This document shows positions 20,854 through 36,440 of a DNA stretch of 48,538 nt, one piece after another. The stretch's first letter is position 1. Each line of letters begins with the position of its first letter. The translations under genes were made by a program, and so were the position numbers. This DNA is from a virus (taxonomy: Duplodnaviria; Heunggongvirae; Uroviricota; Caudoviricetes): the IMG/VR virus record IMGVR_UViG_2740892445_000002. One strand, 5' to 3'. Below the pieces are notes generated by a model. It was not told where the DNA came from and did not search any database. It saw only the letters and a list, made by a program, of their open reading frames with translations.

Positions 20854-21056
20854 AACCTCACTCCCAGCGGACGACGGCGACACCGGGTTGTCCCCAGTAC
20901 CGACTCCGCATCATTAATCGCCCGGTTAAGCTCATCCAGAGAAGCCGCCGTATATTCAATTCTGCGACCATCTTTCTGGACAGACACCACCCGTTTACCG
21001 GTTAATAAATCAAGGCGCGCCTGACGCAGCGCCTGCAGTTCAGCGACTGTAACCAT
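20850..21056 (-). CDS. W: head-tail joining protein W
   Basis: 68 aa, ...LLTGKRV..VQKDGRR.E.TA.S... like lambda gpW. Confidence 0.85.
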   Translation of the reverse strand: MVTVAELQALRQARLDLLTGKRVVSVQKDGRRIEYTAASLDELNRAINDAESVLGTTRCRRRPLGVRL

Positions 21057-22968
21057 TCACTCCTCCGGACAGCTTCGCTGCCAGTTCTTTAAGGGTTGGC
21101 CGGGTCGTCTCTTCTTCCCGGGATTTTGCCAGTACAGCCAGATCAAGCTGCCAGCGTTGCACGGACACACGTAATGCCGCGTAGGCATACACCAGGCAGT
21201 CCAGCGCTTCGTTACGCCGCTTTTTGTTATCCCACAGCAGACGCATCTTTCCTTTTTCCCACTTCTCCACAAGCTCCTCCGCGACCAGTTGCTGCGCCTC
21301 TGTCTGCGAAAAAATCTCCGGATCATCAGGAAAACGGATGGCATATGACGTGGCTTCATCCGCAGGCATGGGATCGGCTTTCATACGGGCATAGAGAATT
21401 TCTTTTGCGGTGTCCGTCCCCACTTCACACAGATACACGCCCCGCTGATTGCGGGTTTTTGGCATGGTGATCACCGGCTTGCCATAGACAGATGCGCCTT
21501 TTACCGGCAGCACCCGGAAAACACCGTGTTTTTTTGACCTCTGATAAACGATTTCGCCATCGATCCCCCCGGTGTCCCAGCAGACACGGGAAATGGTTAT
21601 TTCGGTACCGTCTGCATGGCGGTATTTTTTGTTGATCGCCGCATCCACACGTAACAGCGTCTCTTCCTCATCAGGACGCCCCATAATGATGATTTTATCC
21701 ACCAGAAAGGCTTCCTCTCCCGGAGCCCATCCCCAGACATACATCTCAAAACGGTTTCGCTGCGAGTCAATACCCGCCGTCAGATAAACCACCCGGGCAG
21801 GCACCGCCGCCGTGTAATGAACAACCTTATCCATCAGTACCTGGTGATCGAGTTTTTCGCCCACGGCCTCTTCCCAGGTCTCGCCCAGCGTGGTGTTCAC
21901 AAAGGTTTTCAGGCCGTTGGGATCTTTCAGTGCATCCAGCCAGTCATAGACAATCTGTACCCAGGTGGTGAACGGACTGTACGCCGTCCAGATATGGAAC
22001 GTGATGGAGCGCGGCGGCGGAATTTCATTACCCGCAGCGCTGAAAAACGTCAGACCGTCACGGGTCCACATGCCCGTGTTTTCACAGATCCACCGCCCGT
22101 TGCTCTGGTCAAGTTCAGACTGACGGATCACGCAACCATTATGTTCACAGAGGTAGAAAACACTTTCGGGTCTGTCCTTCTCCCATTTAAGGCCAAAAGG
22201 CGTGGACTCATCGCCAAATTTCAGATACTGCTCCTCCCCACAGTGCGGGCAGGGCACATAAAAACGCATGAAATGTGCCGACTCGTTAGCGGCTTTTTCG
22301 ATCTGGCAGGTGCCTTTGATTTTAGGCGTCGAGCCGCGAATGGATTTTGGCCATACAGAGCCCTCAATACGTTTATCCCCCAGCAGGGTTGGCGAACCCT
22401 CTTTTTCGACATCCGGCTCGAACGAGGAAAGCTCGTCATAACAGACCACATCCACGGATTTTTCACGGTAGTTTTTGGCGGCAGCACCACCCAGGCACCA
22501 GAAGCCCACACCCGATGAAAAGCGTTTCAGCGTGAGAGTATTATCACGATGTTTACGACCCAGCCATGGGGAAAGGTCTTTCAGGCATGGCACGTCCCGA
22601 ATCGTCGCCTCCACATGAGACTTCATAAAATCTTCAGCGGCAGAATCCGTAGGCTGAAAAAGCAGACTGTTTCGGGATTTATGCTCAATAAAATACCCGA
22701 TCACCCCCAGCAACATCTTTGTATAGCCAACACGGGCAGATTTAATCAGATTAACAGTGCGGCTCTGATCATTCCCCATACTGTTCATGATGGCGATCTG
22801 GAATGGCAGCGTTTTCCATTCGCCGTCACCGTATGAGGATTCTTTAGGCAGATAATAATTTTGATCAGCCCATTCAACTGCCGTCATCGGTACAACCCTG
22901 ACCAGAGGCTGCAGCGCAACCGAAACGGCAGCCATCATATTATTCAGTTGTTGCTCTGATATATTCAT
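21040..22968 (-). CDS. A: terminase large subunit A
   Basis: Start set at MNISEQQ...; ...TAVEWADQNYYLPKES..., ...KSARVGYTKMLLGV..., ...KRRNEALDCLVYA... as in lambda gpA. Confidence 0.95.
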   Translation of the reverse strand: MNISEQQLNNMMAAVSVALQPLVRVVPMTAVEWADQNYYLPKESSYGDGEWKTLPFQIAIMNSMGNDQSRTVNLIKSARVGYTKMLLGVIGYFIEHKSRNSLLFQPTDSAAEDFMKSHVEATIRDVPCLKDLSPWLGRKHRDNTLTLKRFSSGVGFWCLGGAAAKNYREKSVDVVCYDELSSFEPDVEKEGSPTLLGDKRIEGSVWPKSIRGSTPKIKGTCQIEKAANESAHFMRFYVPCPHCGEEQYLKFGDESTPFGLKWEKDRPESVFYLCEHNGCVIRQSELDQSNGRWICENTGMWTRDGLTFFSAAGNEIPPPRSITFHIWTAYSPFTTWVQIVYDWLDALKDPNGLKTFVNTTLGETWEEAVGEKLDHQVLMDKVVHYTAAVPARVVYLTAGIDSQRNRFEMYVWGWAPGEEAFLVDKIIIMGRPDEEETLLRVDAAINKKYRHADGTEITISRVCWDTGGIDGEIVYQRSKKHGVFRVLPVKGASVYGKPVITMPKTRNQRGVYLCEVGTDTAKEILYARMKADPMPADEATSYAIRFPDDPEIFSQTEAQQLVAEELVEKWEKGKMRLLWDNKKRRNEALDCLVYAYAALRVSVQRWQLDLAVLAKSREEETTRPTLKELAAKLSGGVNGYSR

Positions 22969-23449
22969 CAAGTAAATCCGGTAATTTATCCCCTGCCCGC
23001 GCACACTGATTTGCGCCCTTTGCAATAAGGGTTTTCAGATGTTCAATATGACGTGGCGTTAAATCCGGGAACTGTCGCTGCATGGATAAAGGGATGGAAT
23101 CAAGCGTACTGGATAACGCCATTGCCAGCTTACTGAGGGCAAAAATACAGAATCCGGTGTCGATCAGTTTTCCTTTTGACACCTCATTTTTTAGCTGTTG
23201 TGTAACGGCCTGTTCTGCTGTCAGTTCCCATCTGGCAATAAGCAATTTCTCTTCATAATCTTCTTCCGGCTCACCATCAGACACATCGTTTTTACTTCTC
23301 CTCAGATACGATATGTAAAAATCACGCCAGGCATCCAGATCCAGTTGCCCTCGCTTATTCGAGACCGGAGCACCCGGTAATTTCTGCAATCTGCGAAGCT
23401 GGCGATCGGTCAGACTTAAATGCCTGGCAACTTCAGTCTGCGTAGCCAC
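22940..23449 (-). CDS. Nu1: terminase small subunit (Nu1-like)
   Basis: 169 aa directly upstream of A and downstream of cos; C-terminal half Nu1-like, N-terminal HTH divergent. Confidence 0.8.
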   Translation of the reverse strand: MATQTEVARHLSLTDRQLRRLQKLPGAPVSNKRGQLDLDAWRDFYISYLRRSKNDVSDGEPEEDYEEKLLIARWELTAEQAVTQQLKNEVSKGKLIDTGFCIFALSKLAMALSSTLDSIPLSMQRQFPDLTPRHIEHLKTLIAKGANQCARAGDKLPDLLDEYIRATTE

Positions 23450-23489
23450 TCCTCACCTCGCAAAAACTCTCACCTCACAATCACGACAA

Positions 23490-23680
23490 AACCGGTCATG
23501 TCCGGTTCACATGCTCATTTTTTGCGCATGTCCGGTTCACAGAAGACCTGTTTTTATATTTTTCATATAGTTAACTTGCAGAGAAACCGGACATGGATCC
23601 CGGAAAATTTTCATAAATAGTGAAAACGCGCGAGGTCGCCGCCCCGTAGCCTGCCGGATCGCCGGAAAGGACCCACAAAA
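23490..23680 (-). other. lambda-type cos site (cosQ-cosN-cosB)
   Basis: Minus strand reads ...GGGTCCTTTCCGGCGATCCGGCAGGCTACGGGGCGGCGACCTCGCGCGTTTTCACTATTTATGAAAATTTTCCGGG, nearly the lambda cos junction as I recall it, including the 12-nt GGGCGGCGACCT end (about 23633-23644); three ATGTCCGGTT repeats (two direct, one inverted) in the cosB position. Confidence 0.75.
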
Positions 23681-23843
23681 TGATAATAATTATCATCTAC
23701 ATGTCACAACGTGCATCTACGCCATCAAACCACGTCAAATAATCAATTATGACGCAGGTATCGTATTAATTGATCTGCATCAACTTAACGTAAAAACAAC
23801 TTCAGACAATACAAATCAACGACACTGAATACGGGGCAACCTC

Positions 23844-24038
23844 ATGTCAACTAAGAATAGAACCCGCAGAACAACAACCCGCAACATCCGCTTTCCTAAC
23901 CAAATGATTGAACAAATCAACATCGCTCTTGATCAAAAAGGGTCCGGGAATTTCTCAGCCTGGGTCATTGAAGCCTGCCGTCGGAGACTAACGTCAGAAA
24001 AGAGAGCATATACATCAATCCAAAGTGATGATGAATGA
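23844..24038 (+). CDS. small ribbon-helix-helix-like protein (YlcI/DUF3950-like)
   Basis: 64 aa, MSTKNRTRRTTTRNIRFPNQMIEQINIALDQKGSGNFSAWVIEACRRRL...; resembles small prophage proteins of the DLP12 ylcI type. Confidence 0.5.
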   Translation: MSTKNRTRRTTTRNIRFPNQMIEQINIALDQKGSGNFSAWVIEACRRRLTSEKRAYTSIQSDDE

Positions 24039-24403: not shown

Positions 24404-24946
24404 ATGAACAGATACTCTAAACTTCAAATTCAATTACATTGGCTGACTCTCGTATTAATAGCTATAGCCTGTGCTGCAATGGAACTTCGAGGTTTGTTTC
24501 CTAAAGGGTCTTCCTCCTATTTGCTTATGAGAGAAACACATTACAATGCTGGTATATTTATTCTTCTACTGATGATAATAAGAGTAATTATCAATAATAA
24601 ATATATAACACCAGCTATTACGCCGCCCCCACCTGCATGGCAAATGATATCAGCCAAATTCATGCAAACCCTGTTATACATATCTTTTTTGGTGTTACCA
24701 GTATCAGGACTTGCAATCATGGTTTTTGGAGGTAAAGCATGGAGCCTTCTGGGGATTGATATTCCCACTTTCGCTAACACCGACGGAGAAGTAAAATCCG
24801 TAGCCAAAACTATTCATGAATCACTTGCAAATATTGGTTATTTATTAATCACACTCCATGCTGGCGCTGCATTAATTCATCATTATATTCAGAAGGACAA
24901 TACACTTGTCAGAATGCTCCCTGAGCACCAGCATGATAAAAAGTGA
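24404..24946 (+). CDS. cytochrome b561 family protein (moron in bor position)
   Basis: 180 aa, four predicted transmembrane helices, conserved His positions typical of the CybB/b561 family. Confidence 0.8.
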   Translation: MNRYSKLQIQLHWLTLVLIAIACAAMELRGLFPKGSSSYLLMRETHYNAGIFILLLMIIRVIINNKYITPAITPPPPAWQMISAKFMQTLLYISFLVLPVSGLAIMVFGGKAWSLLGIDIPTFANTDGEVKSVAKTIHESLANIGYLLITLHAGAALIHHYIQKDNTLVRMLPEHQHDKK

Positions 24947-29846: not shown

Positions 29847-29851
29847 GTCCA

Positions 29852-29876
29852 TAAAAAAGCCCCTCCGGAGAGGGGC
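29852..29876 (-). terminator. intrinsic terminator after repeat unit 1
   Basis: Minus-strand GCCCCUC-UCCG-GAGGGGC followed by UUUUUUAU. Confidence 0.6.
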
Positions 29877-29898
29877 ATACTAGCTATATATCCATTTA

Positions 29899-30026
29899 TC
29901 ATTGGCTGCGTGGTGCCGGGTGCCTCCCGGTGAGCTCAGTCTGGTGTCACTGAGCCCGCACATTCTCGATCCAAGTTATCGTCGGAGATAATACCTGATA
30001 CACCAGACGCCCCTCCGCACAGGGGG
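29899..30026 (-). repeat. tRNA-like cloverleaf repeat unit 1 (candidate structured ncRNA)
   Basis: Conserved blocks GGTGCCGGGTGCCTCCCGGTG and CCCCTCCGCACAGGGGGATTCACCA; terminal stem CGTGGTG/CACCACG; variable interior. Confidence 0.5.
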
Positions 30027-30263
30027 ATTCACCACGCGCAGAGAAGGATACTGAACACTATTTTCTCCAGGCAATATGCAATAACATGAAGTGTGAGATG
30101 ACTTACAATTATAAAAAACAGCCTACAGAATACTCCTAAATAAAGCCATATCAAAATGAGTAACACAAAAAGGAACCAGGCAAAAATTTACGAGCAGGTA
30201 TTATCCAGCAACAGTTCAGACGCCATAACTTATTGCCGATAGCTACCATCAATAATTTCTTTC

Positions 30264-30289
30264 ATAAAAAAGCCCCTCTGAAGAGGGGC
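30264..30289 (-). terminator. intrinsic terminator after repeat unit 2
   Basis: Minus-strand GCCCCUC-UUCA-GAGGGGC followed by UUUUUUAU. Confidence 0.6.
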
Positions 30290-30316
30290 TGACATACGCA
30301 TTTGCTTTCATCATCA

Positions 30317-30439
30317 ATATGGCGCCGGGTGCCTCCCGGTGCTCCATAACTGATTAATATGGAACGCGGTTTCATTCAGTTGCATTCATGAATAACACTC
30401 TAATCAGTCCGCCCCGCCGCTTAGGGGGATTCGCCATAT
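30317..30439 (-). repeat. tRNA-like cloverleaf repeat unit 2 (candidate structured ncRNA)
   Basis: Same blocks with compensatory changes (GGCGCC... / ...GATTCGCCA); terminal stem ATATGGCG/CGCCATAT; interior closed by ACTGATTA/TAATCAGT. Confidence 0.5.
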
Positions 30440-30574
30440 AAATTGAAAGTACTGAACACATCTGTCACAAACAATATGCAATTGTATGAATTGTGAGATT
30501 ATTATCAATAACACAAAATTACAGCTCTAGTACATAAACAGCAGATTAAACAAGAACAACAAAAGTATTGAATT

Positions 30575-30697
30575 GCACGGTGCCGGGTGCCTCCCGGTGA
30601 ATTCTGCAATGACCAGACAGAATCCGCAACTTGCTACTAACGCTAATGCGACCAAGCCTCAGTCATTATGCCCCTCCGCACAGGGGGATTCACCATG
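30575..30697 (-). repeat. tRNA-like cloverleaf repeat unit 3 (candidate structured ncRNA)
   Basis: Same conserved blocks; terminal stem GCACGGTG/CACCATGC (one mismatch); interior closed by AATGAC/GTCATT. Confidence 0.5.
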
Positions 30698-30827
30698 CGC
30701 TAAAAAAATACAAAACGTCACGTCACTCTGACAATACGAAGCACCATAAAATGTGAGTTATTTATCAATTCTTAATTCTGGTTACAGGAATATTCCGAAT
30801 CAAATCTTTAAAAAAAGAAATTCAAAT

Positions 30828-30930
30828 GCATGGTGCCGGGTGCCTCCCGGTGAACAGACCGTCCGTGATACCAGTAGGCAACACAGGAAATTAATGGTAT
30901 CACCCCACCGCACAGGGGGATTCACCATGC
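30828..30930 (-). repeat. tRNA-like cloverleaf repeat unit 4 (candidate structured ncRNA)
   Basis: Same conserved blocks; terminal stem GCATGGTG/CACCATGC; interior closed by GTGATACCA/TGGTATCAC. Confidence 0.5.
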
Positions 30931-31320
30931 AGGCGTTTTCTTAGCAAACTAACTGCGCGCCCGGCAACTCCCAACCACATAAAACGTGGAGTTTGTAGCA
31001 TTTATGCACATAACTCACAGGGGTTATCTTAAAAAAAGCTGACCATGCTTCCCCGGCAACGCAATAACTTTATTCCCTGAAGTGGCATCCCCCGTATTGT
31101 CGGCAGGCTCAAAAAGGAGCCAGTCATCTGAGGATGACTGGAAAAAGGAAAGATAAAAAATTATTCATCATACAACCTTCGTTGCAGGGGAGAATCCTGC
31201 GGTGCAGCAACATACAAAAACATAAGCCAACTAACAATATGCAGGCATAGCATTTTCGGATTTTGTTATATGGCACGGTAACTGAATGCTTACCTGATAT
31301 ACAGTCCGGTATAAAGTTGC

Positions 31321-31582: not shown

Positions 31583-31660
31583 TGCTGGACCGTCACCGGG
31601 GACTCGAACCCCGCATTTTCAACATAAAAAGGTTGATGCTCTTTCCTGATGAGCTAGTGA
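31583..31660 (-). tRNA. tRNA-like gene with 8-nt anticodon loop CUUUUUAU (Lys-UUU-like; possible variant or pseudogene)
   Basis: Acceptor stem CCGTCAC/GTGACGG, D arm GCTC-ATCAGGAAA-GAGC, T arm CGGGG-TTCGAGT-CCCCG, encoded CCA; anticodon loop one nt too long. Confidence 0.55.
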
Positions 31661-31662
31661 CG

Positions 31663-31737
31663 GCATGGTTGCCTTGCTGGATTTGAACCAGCGACCTGGC
31701 GATTATGAGTCTCTCGCTCTCACCACTGAGCTAAAGG
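31663..31737 (-). tRNA. tRNA-like gene with CAU anticodon (Met/Ile2-like), imperfect acceptor and anticodon stems; possible pseudogene
   Basis: D arm GCTC-AGTGGTGA-GAGC, anticodon loop CTCATAA, T arm GCTGG-TTCAAAT-CCAGC, CCA; only 4 of 7 acceptor pairs form by my reading. Confidence 0.45.
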
Positions 31738-31780
31738 GCCGGGAACAGAATAATAATGGTGCGTAATTAATTCTGCAATC

Positions 31781-36107: not shown

Positions 36108-36263
36108 TTACTTCTCAGATTCGTAAGCTGTGAAGACAGCGACCTCCGTCTGGCCGGTTCGGATTCGTACCTCGCAGAGGTCTTTCCTCGTTACCAGTAC
36201 CGTTACAACGACGGTAATACAGATGACGATCAGGGCGATTAGCATCGCCTTTTGCTGCTTCAT
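36108..36263 (-). CDS. hokD: Hok-family type I toxin (HokD/RelF-like)
   Basis: 51 aa MKQQKAMLIALIVICITVVVTVLVTRKDLCEVRIRTGQTEVAVFTAYESEK, near-identical to my recollection of HokD. Confidence 0.9.
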   Translation of the reverse strand: MKQQKAMLIALIVICITVVVTVLVTRKDLCEVRIRTGQTEVAVFTAYESEK

Positions 36264-36440
36264 AGCCTGCTGCTCCTTGCCTTTCGGCGCGTAAGAGGCT
36301 AATCTAAGTGTGCAAGTCATAGATATGGCCTCAGATTAATGTTAAGCGTCCTGCAAGACGCATAATGTTAACTGGGGCTTTTCTCTGTCTGCCTTACGTC
36401 GGCATGCCCGAGGCAGACAGCCTCAAGCACCCGCAGCAAT
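36264..36440. promoter_or_regulatory. hok mRNA leader / mok start / antisense Sok region
   Basis: Minus-strand leader GGGUGCUUGAGGCUGUCUGCCUC... resembles hok mRNA 5' end; in-frame upstream start MTCTLRL... Confidence 0.45.

What the first reader, a model, noticed from the sequence alone, without database searches (positions are those of the whole stretch)
23490..23680. Lambda-type cos with ATGTCCGGTT repeats in the cosB position
The cosQ-cosN junction closely matches my recollection of lambda, but the terminase-binding side carries three copies of ATGTCCGGTT (two direct, one inverted) between cosN and Nu1, consistent with a diverged Nu1 N-terminal DNA-binding domain and altered packaging specificity.
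Basis: partly seen in the sequence, partly recalled or inferred. Interest (0 to 1): 0.35.

Follow-up and report, generated by a model that had tools for sequence, protein, structure and literature searches.

The report
Lambda-type cos with TCCGGTT terminase-binding repeats
This is the DNA-packaging start site of a lambda-like prophage: the cutting site is identical to lambda's, but the neighbouring docking sites for the small terminase subunit carry a different repeated motif (CATGTCCGGTT), matched by a different DNA-binding domain in that protein. This site/protein pairing is common in E. coli, and I found no description of the repeats in the papers I could search.

Summary
All features lie on the minus strand.

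- **Cutting site.** cosQ, the 12-nt cohesive end GGGCGGCGACCT (23644..23633) and the I2 block match lambda. Homology stops at lambda bp ~46.
- **Repeats.** Three exact CATGTCCGGTT copies follow, at the positions of lambda/phage 21 R3 (bp 50-60) and R2 (inverted, bp 104-118), plus a third inverted copy (bp 134-148). An I1-like IHF site lies between R3 and R2.
- **Small terminase (TerS).** The adjacent Nu1-type gene (23449..22940) keeps lambda's C-terminal part. Its first ~60 residues (MATQTEVARHLSLTDRQLRRLQK...) fall outside Pfam's Nu1 profile and are predicted to form a winged helix-turn-helix.
- **Comparative evidence.** In 35 loci encoding this domain, from E. coli to Pseudomonas and Azospirillum, a TCCGGTT core sits at a fixed distance from cosQ/cosN. 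Eleven enterobacterial loci keep an inverted second copy exactly 54 bp away. Four loci whose recognition helix has lost the D-R..R pattern also lack the motif.
- **Covariation.** Residue 20 tracks the base before the core: Arg with G, any other residue with T.
- **Distribution.** About 21% of complete E. coli genomes carry this cos type, including O157 Sakai Sp4/Sp14.

It is a new specificity class of a known kind. No binding or DNA-end data exist.

The parts
23668..23674 (-). cosQ core GGGTCCT, starting 30 nt before the first base of the cohesive end
   Evidence: Alignment with the lambda end junction. The same GGGTCC anchor is found in relatives and is labelled cosQ in Fig S8 of PMC2669165.
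23631..23646 (-). cosN: the 12-nt cohesive-end sequence GGGCGGCGACCT (23644..23633) plus the flanking CG dinucleotides
   Evidence: Identical to lambda bp 1-12 and its flanks. The nick positions are inferred by homology and have not been mapped.
23599..23632 (-). Block conserved with lambda (bp 13-46, includes the I2 IHF site TATGAAAATTTTCCG). Homology to lambda ends here.
   Evidence: Alignment. The megablast boundary of lambda-like hits falls at query position 301, which is window ~23600. The I2 label comes from M81255.1 and PMC2669165.
23580..23595 (-). R3-equivalent site CATGTCCGGTTTCTCT (bp 50-65; TCCGGTT core at bp 54-60)
   Evidence: Exact motif copy. All 11 motif columns are invariant in 49 unique cosB variants. 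The core sits at bp 53-61 in all 11 enterobacterial relatives and 84-85 bp after cosQ in distant relatives.
23561..23573 (-). I1-like IHF core TAACTATATGAAA (bp 72-84), with 2 mismatches to YAANNNNTTGATW, followed by an A/T-rich tract
   Evidence: Read directly from the sequence. Relatives L113, L115, L122 and L123 have a perfect consensus at bp 71-73. Phage 21's I1 is annotated at bp 72-86. IHF binding itself is inferred.
23527..23541 (+). R2-equivalent site (gene-sense TGTGAACCGGACATG, bp 104-118), inverted relative to R3
   Evidence: Exact copy. An inverted core at bp 107-115, exactly 54 bp from the R3 core, is present in 11 of 11 relatives. Only 2 of 11 columns vary among close relatives.
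23497..23511 (+). R1-equivalent site (gene-sense TGTGAACCGGACATG, bp 134-148), in the same orientation as R2
   Evidence: Exact copy. It is present in PhiR12_1, Klebsiella L113 (bp 151-157) and Enterobacter L117 (bp 137-143), and absent in 7 other relatives. It is degenerate (AAGCCGGA) in part of the close relatives.
23489..23500 (-). Fourth, one-mismatch copy (CATGACCGGTTT, bp 145-156) in R3 orientation, overlapping R1. It is probably dispensable.
   Evidence: It is lost in several close relatives and in L113.
22940..23449 (-). terS (Nu1-type small terminase, 169 aa, GTG start). Residues 1-~57 form the predicted winged-HTH DNA-binding domain with recognition helix 15-22. Residues 70-150 match Pfam Phage_Nu1.
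   Evidence: The identical region of E. coli M18 is annotated as terminase small subunit.
21040..22968 (-). terL (gpA-type large terminase with ATPase and endonuclease domains), overlapping terS by 29 nt
   Evidence: Pfam GpA_ATPase and GpA_nuclease. The start is taken from the RefSeq annotation of the identical M18 region. The longest ORF begins at 23025.

Best explanation
The region is the cos site of a lambda-like prophage. The three CATGTCCGGTT copies are its cosB 'R' sequences, the docking sites for the small terminase subunit TerS.

Proposed mechanism, by analogy with lambda and phage 21:
- A dimer of the TerS N-terminal winged helix-turn-helix domains binds the R3 copy (bp 50-60) and the inverted R2 copy 54 bp away.
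- An IHF-induced bend at the I1-like site between them brings the two copies together.
- The third copy (R1) is an accessory site.
- The C-terminal half of TerS, which is lambda-like, holds the gpA-type large subunit. That subunit is thereby placed to nick the lambda-identical cosN and start packaging.

The TerS DNA-binding domain belongs to a different sequence family (MATQxEVAxHLxL[ST][DE]RQLRxLQK) from those of lambda, 21, phi80 and N15, and it recognises a TCCGGTT core. This phage should therefore have a packaging specificity distinct from those phages while producing the same cohesive ends as lambda.

Shown here: the sequence anatomy, the positional correspondence, the co-occurrence and covariation of domain and site, and the conservation gradient R3 > R2 > R1. 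Inferred: actual TerS binding, IHF binding, the nick positions and the specificity phenotype.
For: Anatomy:
- cosQ, cosN and I2 match lambda, and similarity breaks at lambda bp ~46.
- The motif copies fall at bp 50-60, 104-118 (inverted) and 134-148. Annotated phage 21 sites are R3 50-65, I1 72-86 and R2 107-122. Lambda R3 is 50-65, with TerS contacts at bp 55-63 (PMC9026076).

Protein:
- Pfam Nu1 covers only residues 70-150.
- The N-terminus aligns helix for helix with the lambda Nu1 helix-turn-helix.
- AlphaFold gives helix 4-10, helix 15-22, a wing and helix 38-57, at pLDDT ~81.
- The best PDB matches are MerR/excisionase-type winged HTH domains, including lambda gpNu1 1j9i and 6hn7_B.

Co-occurrence:
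- In 24 of 29 distant loci encoding this domain (Enterobacter, Aeromonas, Pseudomonas, Azospirillum, Roseomonas, a betaproteobacterium), a TCCGGTT core lies just upstream of terS. In most it is part of a tandem TTCCGsTTCCGGTT. In most of those that have a recognisable cosQ, one core copy lies 84-85 bp after it.
- The four loci whose recognition helix lacks the D-R..R pattern lack the motif.

Phylogenetic footprint:
- In 11 enterobacterial lambda-like loci (TerS 59-100% identical), flanks and spacers have diverged. The core stays at bp 53-61, and an inverted copy lies exactly 54 bp away in 11 of 11.
- Among 49 unique close variants, R3 has 0 of 11 variable columns, R2 has 2 of 11 and R1 has 3 of 11. 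The spacers have 8 of 19 and 9 of 15.

Covariation:
- TerS residue 20 lies in the recognition helix and aligns with lambda N21. Arg goes with atG-TCCGGTT (6 of 6 loci, every copy). Asp/Asn/other goes with T-TCCGGTT (5 of 5 enterobacterial plus 24 of 24 distant).

Function in nature:
- PhiR12_1 to PhiR12_5, plaque-forming phages on K-12 and E. coli C, carry this cos and terS at 93-95% identity.
- O157 Sakai Sp4 and Sp14 carry the same Nu1 and cos, and Sp4 DNA was found packaged (PMC2669165).
- The 321-bp cos/cosB/terS-5' segment is present at >=80% coverage in 1148 of 5426 complete E. coli genomes.
Against: - There is no direct evidence of TerS binding, IHF binding or the position of the DNA ends for this element or any relative.
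- The fold matches are of the right class but none is statistically significant (all E > 0.1). The PDB sequence search found nothing.
- The third copy is oriented like R2, not like R3 as in lambda and 21. It is missing in most relatives, so the 'R1' label is loose.
- The Arg20/G covariation probably reflects a single evolutionary event, so it is weak statistically.
- High conservation among the close relatives partly reflects low divergence.
- The window's I1-like site has two mismatches to the IHF consensus.
- The 7-mer TCCGGTT is also over-represented elsewhere in the window (17 copies against 5.9 expected), and lambda has it at bp 41-47. The 7-mer alone is therefore not diagnostic.
- Whether this particular prophage copy is still inducible was not assessed.
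Confidence: 0.8

Rival explanations
1. The repeats bind some other protein, such as a host factor or a phage-encoded regulator of the late/head operon. TerS would then recognise something else.
For: No binding data exist. The repeats lie in the untranslated leader of terS. A weak promoter-like match lies upstream at 23707-23680, and a weak hairpin plus T-run overlaps R3.
Against: The promoter-like and terminator-like matches are within chance expectation, and the hairpin is not conserved in L115. The motif tracks the TerS DNA-binding-domain family across hosts from E. coli to Azospirillum, not the host taxon. It keeps a fixed distance from cosQ/cosN rather than from the start codon, whose distance varies from about 13 to 89 nt. 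It also changes together with a recognition-helix residue. No Rfam family matches at cos.
Confidence: 0.06
2. The sites are a drifted version of the phage 21 R boxes (21 core CATGTCGG against CATGTCCGG here). The phage would then share, or partly share, phage 21's packaging specificity instead of having a new one.
For: The annotated 21 R boxes read AATCGTGTCGGTACTT, AAGGTCCGACATGAAA and TTTCATGTCGGGCCTT. They lie at almost the same coordinates and differ from the motif here by one extra C. Asymmetric cross-packaging is known between N15 and lambda (PMC4669245).
Against: 21 TerS aligns with this TerS only from residue 64 onward, at 38% identity. The recognition helices differ. The conserved core in all relatives is TCCGGTT, and the CATG part is absent in the D/N20 group and in the distant relatives. 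That makes the resemblance to 21 look secondary. A 1-bp insertion inside a helix-turn-helix site normally abolishes recognition (established knowledge; this is an inference).
Confidence: 0.07
3. The element is a decayed prophage remnant. The cos/cosB anatomy would be correct by descent, but this copy would no longer function, so the repeats have no present role.
For: Many E. coli lambdoid prophages are defective (PMC2669165). Inducibility of this copy was not examined.
Against: terS and terL are intact ORFs with full Pfam domains. All three motif copies are exact. The downstream head genes are annotated as intact in the identical M18 region. Near-identical cos regions belong to plaque-forming PhiR12 phages. 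This rival concerns only this copy, not the nature of the site.
Confidence: 0.07

Closest known systems
Phage lambda cos (cosQ-cosN-I2-R3-I1-R2-R1) with Nu1/gpA terminase
   Same: cosQ, the identical 12-nt cohesive end and the I2 block. R3 at bp 50-65, an IHF-type site between R3 and an inverted R2, and a third R copy. terS start near bp 190-196. A lambda-like TerS C-terminal half (~45% identity) and a gpA-type TerL.
   Different: The R-sequence core is TCCGGTT instead of CGTTTCC. The R3-R2 core spacing is 54 bp instead of 61 bp. R1 is oriented like R2, not like R3. The first ~60 residues of TerS lie outside Pfam's Nu1 profile, and the wing is about 5 residues shorter.
Phage 21 cosB and gp1 (the classical alternative packaging specificity)
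   Same: The same coordinates for R3, I1 and R2 (50-65, 72-86, 107-122). The R box contains CATGTCGG, one base different from CATGTCCGG here.
   Different: The TerS DNA-binding domain is unrelated at the sequence level (alignment only from residue 64). The core conserved in relatives is TCCGGTT, not CATG. R1 has a different orientation and position.
Phage N15 (single-R3 cosB) and the Monarch prophage group (same R3, lambda-like three-R cosB)
   Same: The same dichotomy is seen inside this family. Distant members (phiARM81ld, LPPA33, 705R4, Enterobacter mori and others) have one compound site at the R3 position and terS starts about 20 nt later, as in N15. The enterobacterial lambda-like members have R3-I1-R2(-R1), as in Monarch (PMC4669245).
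   Different: N15's R3 is GAGGTTGTTGTT and its TerS helix is different. No TCCGGTT occurs in the first 210 bp of N15.
E. coli O157 Sakai prophages Sp4 and Sp14 (Asadulghani et al. 2009, PMC2669165, Fig S8)
   Same: The same Nu1 protein type (MATQTEVARHLSLTDRQLRRLQKLPGAPISNKRGQ...) and the same cos up to ...CCGGGATCCATGT. Packaging of Sp4 DNA was shown experimentally.
   Different: That paper marks only cosQ, cosN and an IHF site, and its alignment stops at the first bases of the R3 copy. The repeats, their arrangement and the domain/site pairing are not described there.
PICI cos sites with Rpp-TerS heterodimers (Fillol-Salom 2019; Murialdo and Feiss 2022)
   Same: Lambda-like cosQ/cosN combined with a non-lambda sequence at the R3 position that is read by a winged-HTH protein. 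6hn7_B is among the best structural matches (TMq 0.67).
   Different: No Rpp-like gene is involved, and I1/R2/R1-type sites are present.

Membership tests
Lambda-like cos site | cosN: 12-nt 5' cohesive-end sequence with conserved flanking CG and partial two-fold symmetry | tested here: met
   GGGCGGCGACCT with CG flanks, identical to lambda. Actual nicking was not tested.
Lambda-like cos site | cosQ about 30 bp upstream of the cohesive end | tested here: met
   GGGTCCTTTCC begins 30 nt before bp 1, as in lambda and 21.
Lambda-like cos site | R3: a TerS-binding repeat at bp ~50-65, at a critical fixed distance from cosN | tested here: met
   The motif copy covers bp 50-60. The core is at bp 53-61 in 11 of 11 relatives and 84-85 bp after cosQ in distant relatives. 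Binding itself was not tested.
Lambda-like cos site | IHF site I1 between R3 and R2 | tested here: inconclusive
   The window has TAACTATATGAAA at bp 72-84, with 2 mismatches to the consensus. Four relatives have a perfect consensus at bp 71-73. No binding data exist.
Lambda-like cos site | R2 in opposite orientation to R3, about 55-60 bp away | tested here: met
   An inverted exact copy lies at bp 104-118. The spacing of 54 bp is conserved in 11 of 11 loci.
Lambda-like cos site | R1 in the same orientation as R3 (order R3-I1-R2-R1, with R2 opposite to R3 and R1; PMC9026076) | tested here: not met
   The third exact copy has R2's orientation. Only a one-mismatch, poorly conserved overlapping copy has R3's orientation. 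A third copy is absent in 7 of 11 relatives.
Lambda-like cos site | Virion DNA ends generated at cosN by terminase | not testable with these tools
   Only indirect support: Sp4 DNA is packaged (PMC2669165) and the PhiR12 phages are viable.
Nu1/gp1-type small terminase (Pfam PF07471) | Match to the Phage_Nu1 profile over its whole length | tested here: not met
   The score of 66 bits exceeds the cut-off of 30, but only residues 70-150 match profile positions 83-163 of 164. The DNA-binding part of the profile is not matched.
Nu1/gp1-type small terminase (Pfam PF07471) | N-terminal MerR-like winged helix-turn-helix DNA-binding domain | tested here: inconclusive
   The predicted topology is correct (pLDDT ~81). 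The top PDB matches are all of this fold class, including 1j9i and 6hn7_B, but every E-value exceeds 0.1. The sequence search of the PDB was empty.
Nu1/gp1-type small terminase (Pfam PF07471) | Gene immediately upstream of, and overlapping, a gpA-type terL | tested here: met
   terL has the GpA_ATPase and GpA_nuclease domains and overlaps terS by 29 nt.
N15-type simple cosB | A single R3 site with no I1, R2 or R1, and terS starting near bp 90 | tested here: not met
   The window has three copies and terS starts at bp 196. Distant members of the same TerS family do show the simple arrangement.

The most novel reading that the evidence does not exclude
The TCCGGTT sites and the 'MATQ' TerS domain may define a previously uncharacterised, very widespread packaging-specificity family of cos phages. 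It spans Alpha-, Beta- and Gammaproteobacteria and occurs in about one fifth of complete E. coli genomes, including EHEC prophages. The family would exist in both N15-like (single site) and lambda-like (R3-I1-R2[-R1]) architectures. A single recognition-helix residue (Arg20 against Asp/Asn20), paired with the base before the core (G against T), would split it into two mutually exclusive sub-specificities. That would be a natural counterpart of the lambda/21 Glu24-bp56 specificity switch.
Probability: 0.45. Interest if true: 0.5.

Novelty: new member of a known kind. Interest (0 to 1): 0.35.

Why it matters
Packaging specificity decides which DNA molecules a terminase will encapsidate. It therefore governs which co-resident prophages, defective prophages, islands or cosmids can be mobilised by which helper.

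This cos/TerS type is the one carried by O157 Sakai Sp4 and Sp14 and by about 21% of complete E. coli genomes. Even so, only its cosQ/cosN part has been drawn in the literature I could search.

Defining its R sites gives three things:
- a concrete rule (TCCGGTT at bp 54-60 plus an inverted copy 54 bp away) for predicting cross-packaging among EHEC prophages;
- a clean natural residue/base pair (Arg20 with G53) for testing how winged-HTH small terminases read DNA;
- a further orthogonal cos/terminase pair for lambda-based packaging tools.

It does not change the accepted mechanism.

Tried and rejected
- **Homologue search with the N-terminal 67 residues alone** returned only fragments and truncated E. 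coli entries. The full-length query was needed.
- **PDB sequence search with TerS** gave no meaningful hit.
- **Full-text search for the motif strings** returned only unrelated papers on p53 sites and primers.
- **Search for a paper on the PhiR12 phages** found nothing.
- **Promoter and terminator scan around cos** gave two weak matches of each kind, within shuffle expectation. The hairpin over R3 is not conserved in relatives, so it was rejected as a functional terminator.
- **Rfam scan** found no RNA family at cos, so a structured-RNA reading was rejected.
- **The fourth overlapping copy** was considered as the true 'R1' in R3 orientation. It was rejected because it is lost in several close relatives and in Klebsiella.
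- **The PICI/Rpp-type cos** was considered and rejected, because a full terS-terL-portal-protease-decoration gene set follows.
- **Fold search with the full-length model** was dominated by the long helices. It was repeated with the 60-residue domain, and the result was still non-significant.

Full report
**1. Observation**

The 10-mer ATGTCCGGTT occurs exactly three times in the 48,538-bp window: at 23498 (+), 23528 (+) and 23585 (-). There is no other exact copy. The shared unit is really the 11-mer CATGTCCGGTT. From base composition, 0.02 copies are expected in the whole window and 5e-5 in a 110-bp stretch.

The two direct copies are 15-mers, CATGTCCGGTTCACA, spaced 30 bp apart. A fourth copy with one mismatch overlaps the copy at 23497 and forms the near-palindrome AACCGGTCATGTCCGGTT.

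**2. Context**

All relevant features read on the minus strand:
- A 169-aa ORF (23449..22940, GTG start) matches Pfam Phage_Nu1.
- The next ORF has the GpA_ATPase and GpA_nuclease domains.
- The identical region of the E. coli M18 chromosome is annotated, in order: lysis genes, cytochrome b, YlcI/YnfO, terminase small subunit, terminase large subunit, head-tail joining protein, portal, S49 protease, decoration protein. This is a lambda-like late operon in a prophage.

**3. The cos site**

Megablast shows that lambda-like phages match window 23900..23600 at 94-97% identity and then stop. A three-way alignment with the lambda end junction and phage PhiR12_1 shows:
- cosQ (GGGTCCTTTCC...);
- the identical cohesive-end sequence GGGCGGCGACCT with its CG flanks (window 23644..23633);
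- the I2 block (TATGAAAATTTTCCGG).

Similarity to lambda is lost completely after lambda bp ~46.

Numbering from the first base of the cohesive end (bp n = 23645 minus the window position), the layout is:

| Feature | Position (bp) | Orientation |
|---|---|---|
| Motif copy 1 (R3-like) | 50-60 | as R3 |
| I1-like IHF core TAACTATATGAAA | 72-84 | n/a |
| Motif copy 2 (R2-like) | 104-118 | inverted |
| Motif copy 3 (R1-like) | 134-148 | inverted |
| terS start codon | 196 | n/a |

For comparison:
- Lambda R3 is bp 50-65, with NMR contacts at bp 55-63 (PMC9026076).
- The phage 21 record annotates R3 at 50-65, I1 at 72-86, R2 at 107-122, R1 at 150-165 and the gene 1 start at 189.

The first two copies and the IHF-like site therefore sit where R3, I1 and R2 sit in the two best-studied phages. 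The third copy differs. It has R2's orientation, whereas in lambda-like phages R2 is opposite to both R3 and R1.

**4. The protein**

- Pfam's Nu1 profile matches only residues 70-150.
- tblastn shows that lambda, phi80, 21 and Gifsy-1 TerS align only from residue 64/73 onward, at 34-46% identity. Full-length relatives are PhiR12_1 to PhiR12_5 (95%), Pseudomonas phage LPPA33 (41%), Aeromonas phage phiARM81ld (35%) and E. coli phage 705R4 (33%).
- Aligned with lambda Nu1, the N-terminus has the same element order: helix, turn, recognition helix, a wing about 5 residues shorter, then a third helix. Window residues 16-23 (RQLRRLQK) lie opposite the lambda recognition helix at residues 17-24 (PMC9026076).
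- AlphaFold models of the full protein and of residues 1-60 give helix 4-10, helix 15-22, a loop/wing and helix 38-57, at pLDDT ~80.
- Foldseek returns only MerR/excisionase-type winged HTH domains at the top: RdfS, RacA, viral TerS domains 7lw0/7lwr, MerR regulators, lambda gpNu1 1j9i and 6hn7_B. All have E > 0.1. The fold class is plausible but not proven.
- Two database homologues (P0083, P0092) have the same C-terminal part joined to a different N-terminal domain. The DNA-binding domain is therefore exchanged as a module.

**5. Comparative test, distant relatives**

I searched one genome per GTDB species with an alignment of the N-terminal domain and obtained 26 loci. With the three distant phages, this makes 29 loci.

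- In 24 of them the sequence just upstream of terS contains a TCCGGTT core. In most it is part of a tandem TTCCG(G/C)TTCCGGTT.
- In most of those that have a recognisable cosQ-like GGGTCC, one core copy starts 84-85 bp after it. The window's value is 83 bp.
- These loci come from Enterobacter, Escherichia whittamii, Microbulbifer, Aeromonas, Pseudomonas, Azospirillum, Roseomonas and a betaproteobacterium. Their terS starts only about 13-30 nt after the site (89 nt in Roseomonas), which is an N15-like simple cosB.
- The four loci whose recognition helix has lost the D-R..R pattern (L026-L029) have no TCCGGTT. L026 shows GGGTTGCGGGTTGCG repeats instead.

As controls, the first 210 bp of 21, phi80 and N15 have no TCCGGTT, and lambda has one at bp 41-47 only.

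**6. Comparative test, intermediate relatives**

Contigs encoding TerS proteins 59-96% identical came from Klebsiella, Salmonella, Citrobacter, Enterobacter kobei, E. coli and metagenomes. Their cosN sequences differ (for example GGGCGGCAGCGT and GGGCGCTAACCC), and their spacers are unalignable.

- All 11 loci, counting the window and PhiR12_1, have TCCGGTT at bp 53-61 and an inverted copy exactly 54 bp downstream.
- A third inverted copy is present in four of them.
- Four have a perfect IHF consensus YAANNNNTTGATW at bp 71-73.

**7. Conservation among close relatives**

Among 49 unique cosB sequences from 79 close relatives, the variable columns are:

| Segment | Variable columns |
|---|---|
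| R3 | 0 of 11 |
| R2 | 2 of 11 |
| R1 | 3 of 11 |
| Spacer bp 85-103 | 8 of 19 |
| Spacer bp 119-133 | 9 of 15 |

This gradient mirrors the genetic hierarchy in lambda, where R3 is critical and R2 and R1 are accessory.

**8. Covariation**

- TerS residue 20 is Arg in the window, PhiR12_1, L117, L119, L120 and L121. In all six, every copy reads atG-TCCGGTT.
- Residue 20 is Asp or Asn in L113, L115, L122, L123 and L124, whose copies read a(t/c)T-TCCGGTT.
- All 24 distant loci with the motif have a non-Arg residue and a T.

The concordance is 35 of 35. It probably reflects one evolutionary change, so I treat it as a lead for a contact between Arg20 and G53, not as proof.

**9. Function in nature and prior knowledge**

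- PhiR12_1 to PhiR12_5 are deposited as complete phage genomes propagated on K-12 and E. coli C. They carry this cos and terS.
- The 321-bp cos/cosB/terS-5' segment is found at >=80% coverage in 1148 of 5426 complete E. coli genomes.
- Fig S8 of Asadulghani et al. 2009 aligns the cos and Nu1 of O157 Sakai prophages Sp4 and Sp14 with lambda. The Nu1 is this type. However, only cosQ, cosN and an IHF site are marked, and the alignment ends at ...GGATCCATGT, the first bases of the R3 copy. The paper reports that Sp4 DNA is packaged, presumably by Sp14 terminase.
- The Feiss laboratory papers held in the library list lambda, phi80, 21, Gifsy-1, N15 and Monarch cosB types and do not list this one.
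- No paper in the library contains the motif in a phage context. The library lacks most subscription-journal papers, so prior description elsewhere cannot be excluded.

**10. Conclusion**

The best explanation (confidence 0.8) is that the repeats are the cosB R sequences of a lambda-like cos, read by a distinct family of TerS winged-HTH domains. The mechanism would be that of lambda and 21:
- R3 anchoring at a fixed distance from cosN;
- IHF-assisted pairing of R3 with the inverted R2;
- an accessory R1;
- TerL recruitment through the conserved TerS C-terminus.

The rivals are each below 0.1. They are binding by another protein, a drifted phage 21 specificity (21's R box CATGTCGG differs by one base), and a dead prophage copy.

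As a kind of system this is known. As a specificity class it appears to be undescribed, although the cos and Nu1 have been displayed before. I rate it a new member of a known kind, with interest 0.35.

Noticed in passing
window 29847-30960 (-): Four tandem copies of the Rfam sRNA family STnc100 (77-133 bits) lie in the prophage's late-regulatory region.
   Followed up: no
window 31586-31741 (-): Two adjacent tRNA genes. ARAGORN calls one tRNA-Met (CAT) and gives the other an odd four-base anticodon (tttt). Rfam confirms that both are tRNAs.
   Followed up: no
window 36258-36432 (-): A full-length match to the sok antitoxin RNA (115 bits), which implies a hok/sok-type toxin-antitoxin locus inside the prophage.
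   Followed up: no
window 24404-24946 (+) and 23844-24038 (+): A cytochrome b-like membrane protein gene and a YlcI/YnfO (DUF3950) gene sit between the lysis cassette and cos, on the strand opposite to the late operon. They look like moron-style cargo.
   Followed up: partly
L126 (phage 21, M81255.1) bp 50-165 from the cohesive end, compared with window 23497-23595: Phage 21's annotated R boxes share CATGTCGG with the window's CATGTCCGG, a difference of one extra C, and lie at nearly the same coordinates. Yet the two TerS DNA-binding domains are unrelated in sequence.
   Followed up: partly
L002 (lambda) bp 41-47: Lambda itself contains TCCGGTT at the I2/R3 junction, 13 bp closer to cosN than the core here. 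This may be chance or a relic of an older site.
   Followed up: no
whole window: The 7-mer TCCGGTT/AACCGGA occurs 17 times against 5.9 expected from base composition, and 14 of those lie outside cos. Dinucleotide or codon bias was not controlled.
   Followed up: no
window 23452-23480 (-): Two Shine-Dalgarno-like 12-mers (TTGCGAGGTGAG and TTGTGAGGTGAG, 17 bp apart) lie directly upstream of the terS GTG start.
   Followed up: no
L026 (Pararoseomonas baculiformis), about 60-160 nt upstream of terS: A TerS of the same family whose recognition helix has changed (TQQAVSAL). It is preceded by GGGTTGCGGGTTGCG repeats instead of TCCGGTT, which may be another specificity within the family.
   Followed up: partly
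P0083 and P0092 (database TerS proteins): These have the same C-terminal two thirds as the window's TerS but a different N-terminal domain (MAHLLNKGDMASSIGIS...). This is evidence that the DNA-binding domain is swapped as a module between terminases.
   Followed up: partly
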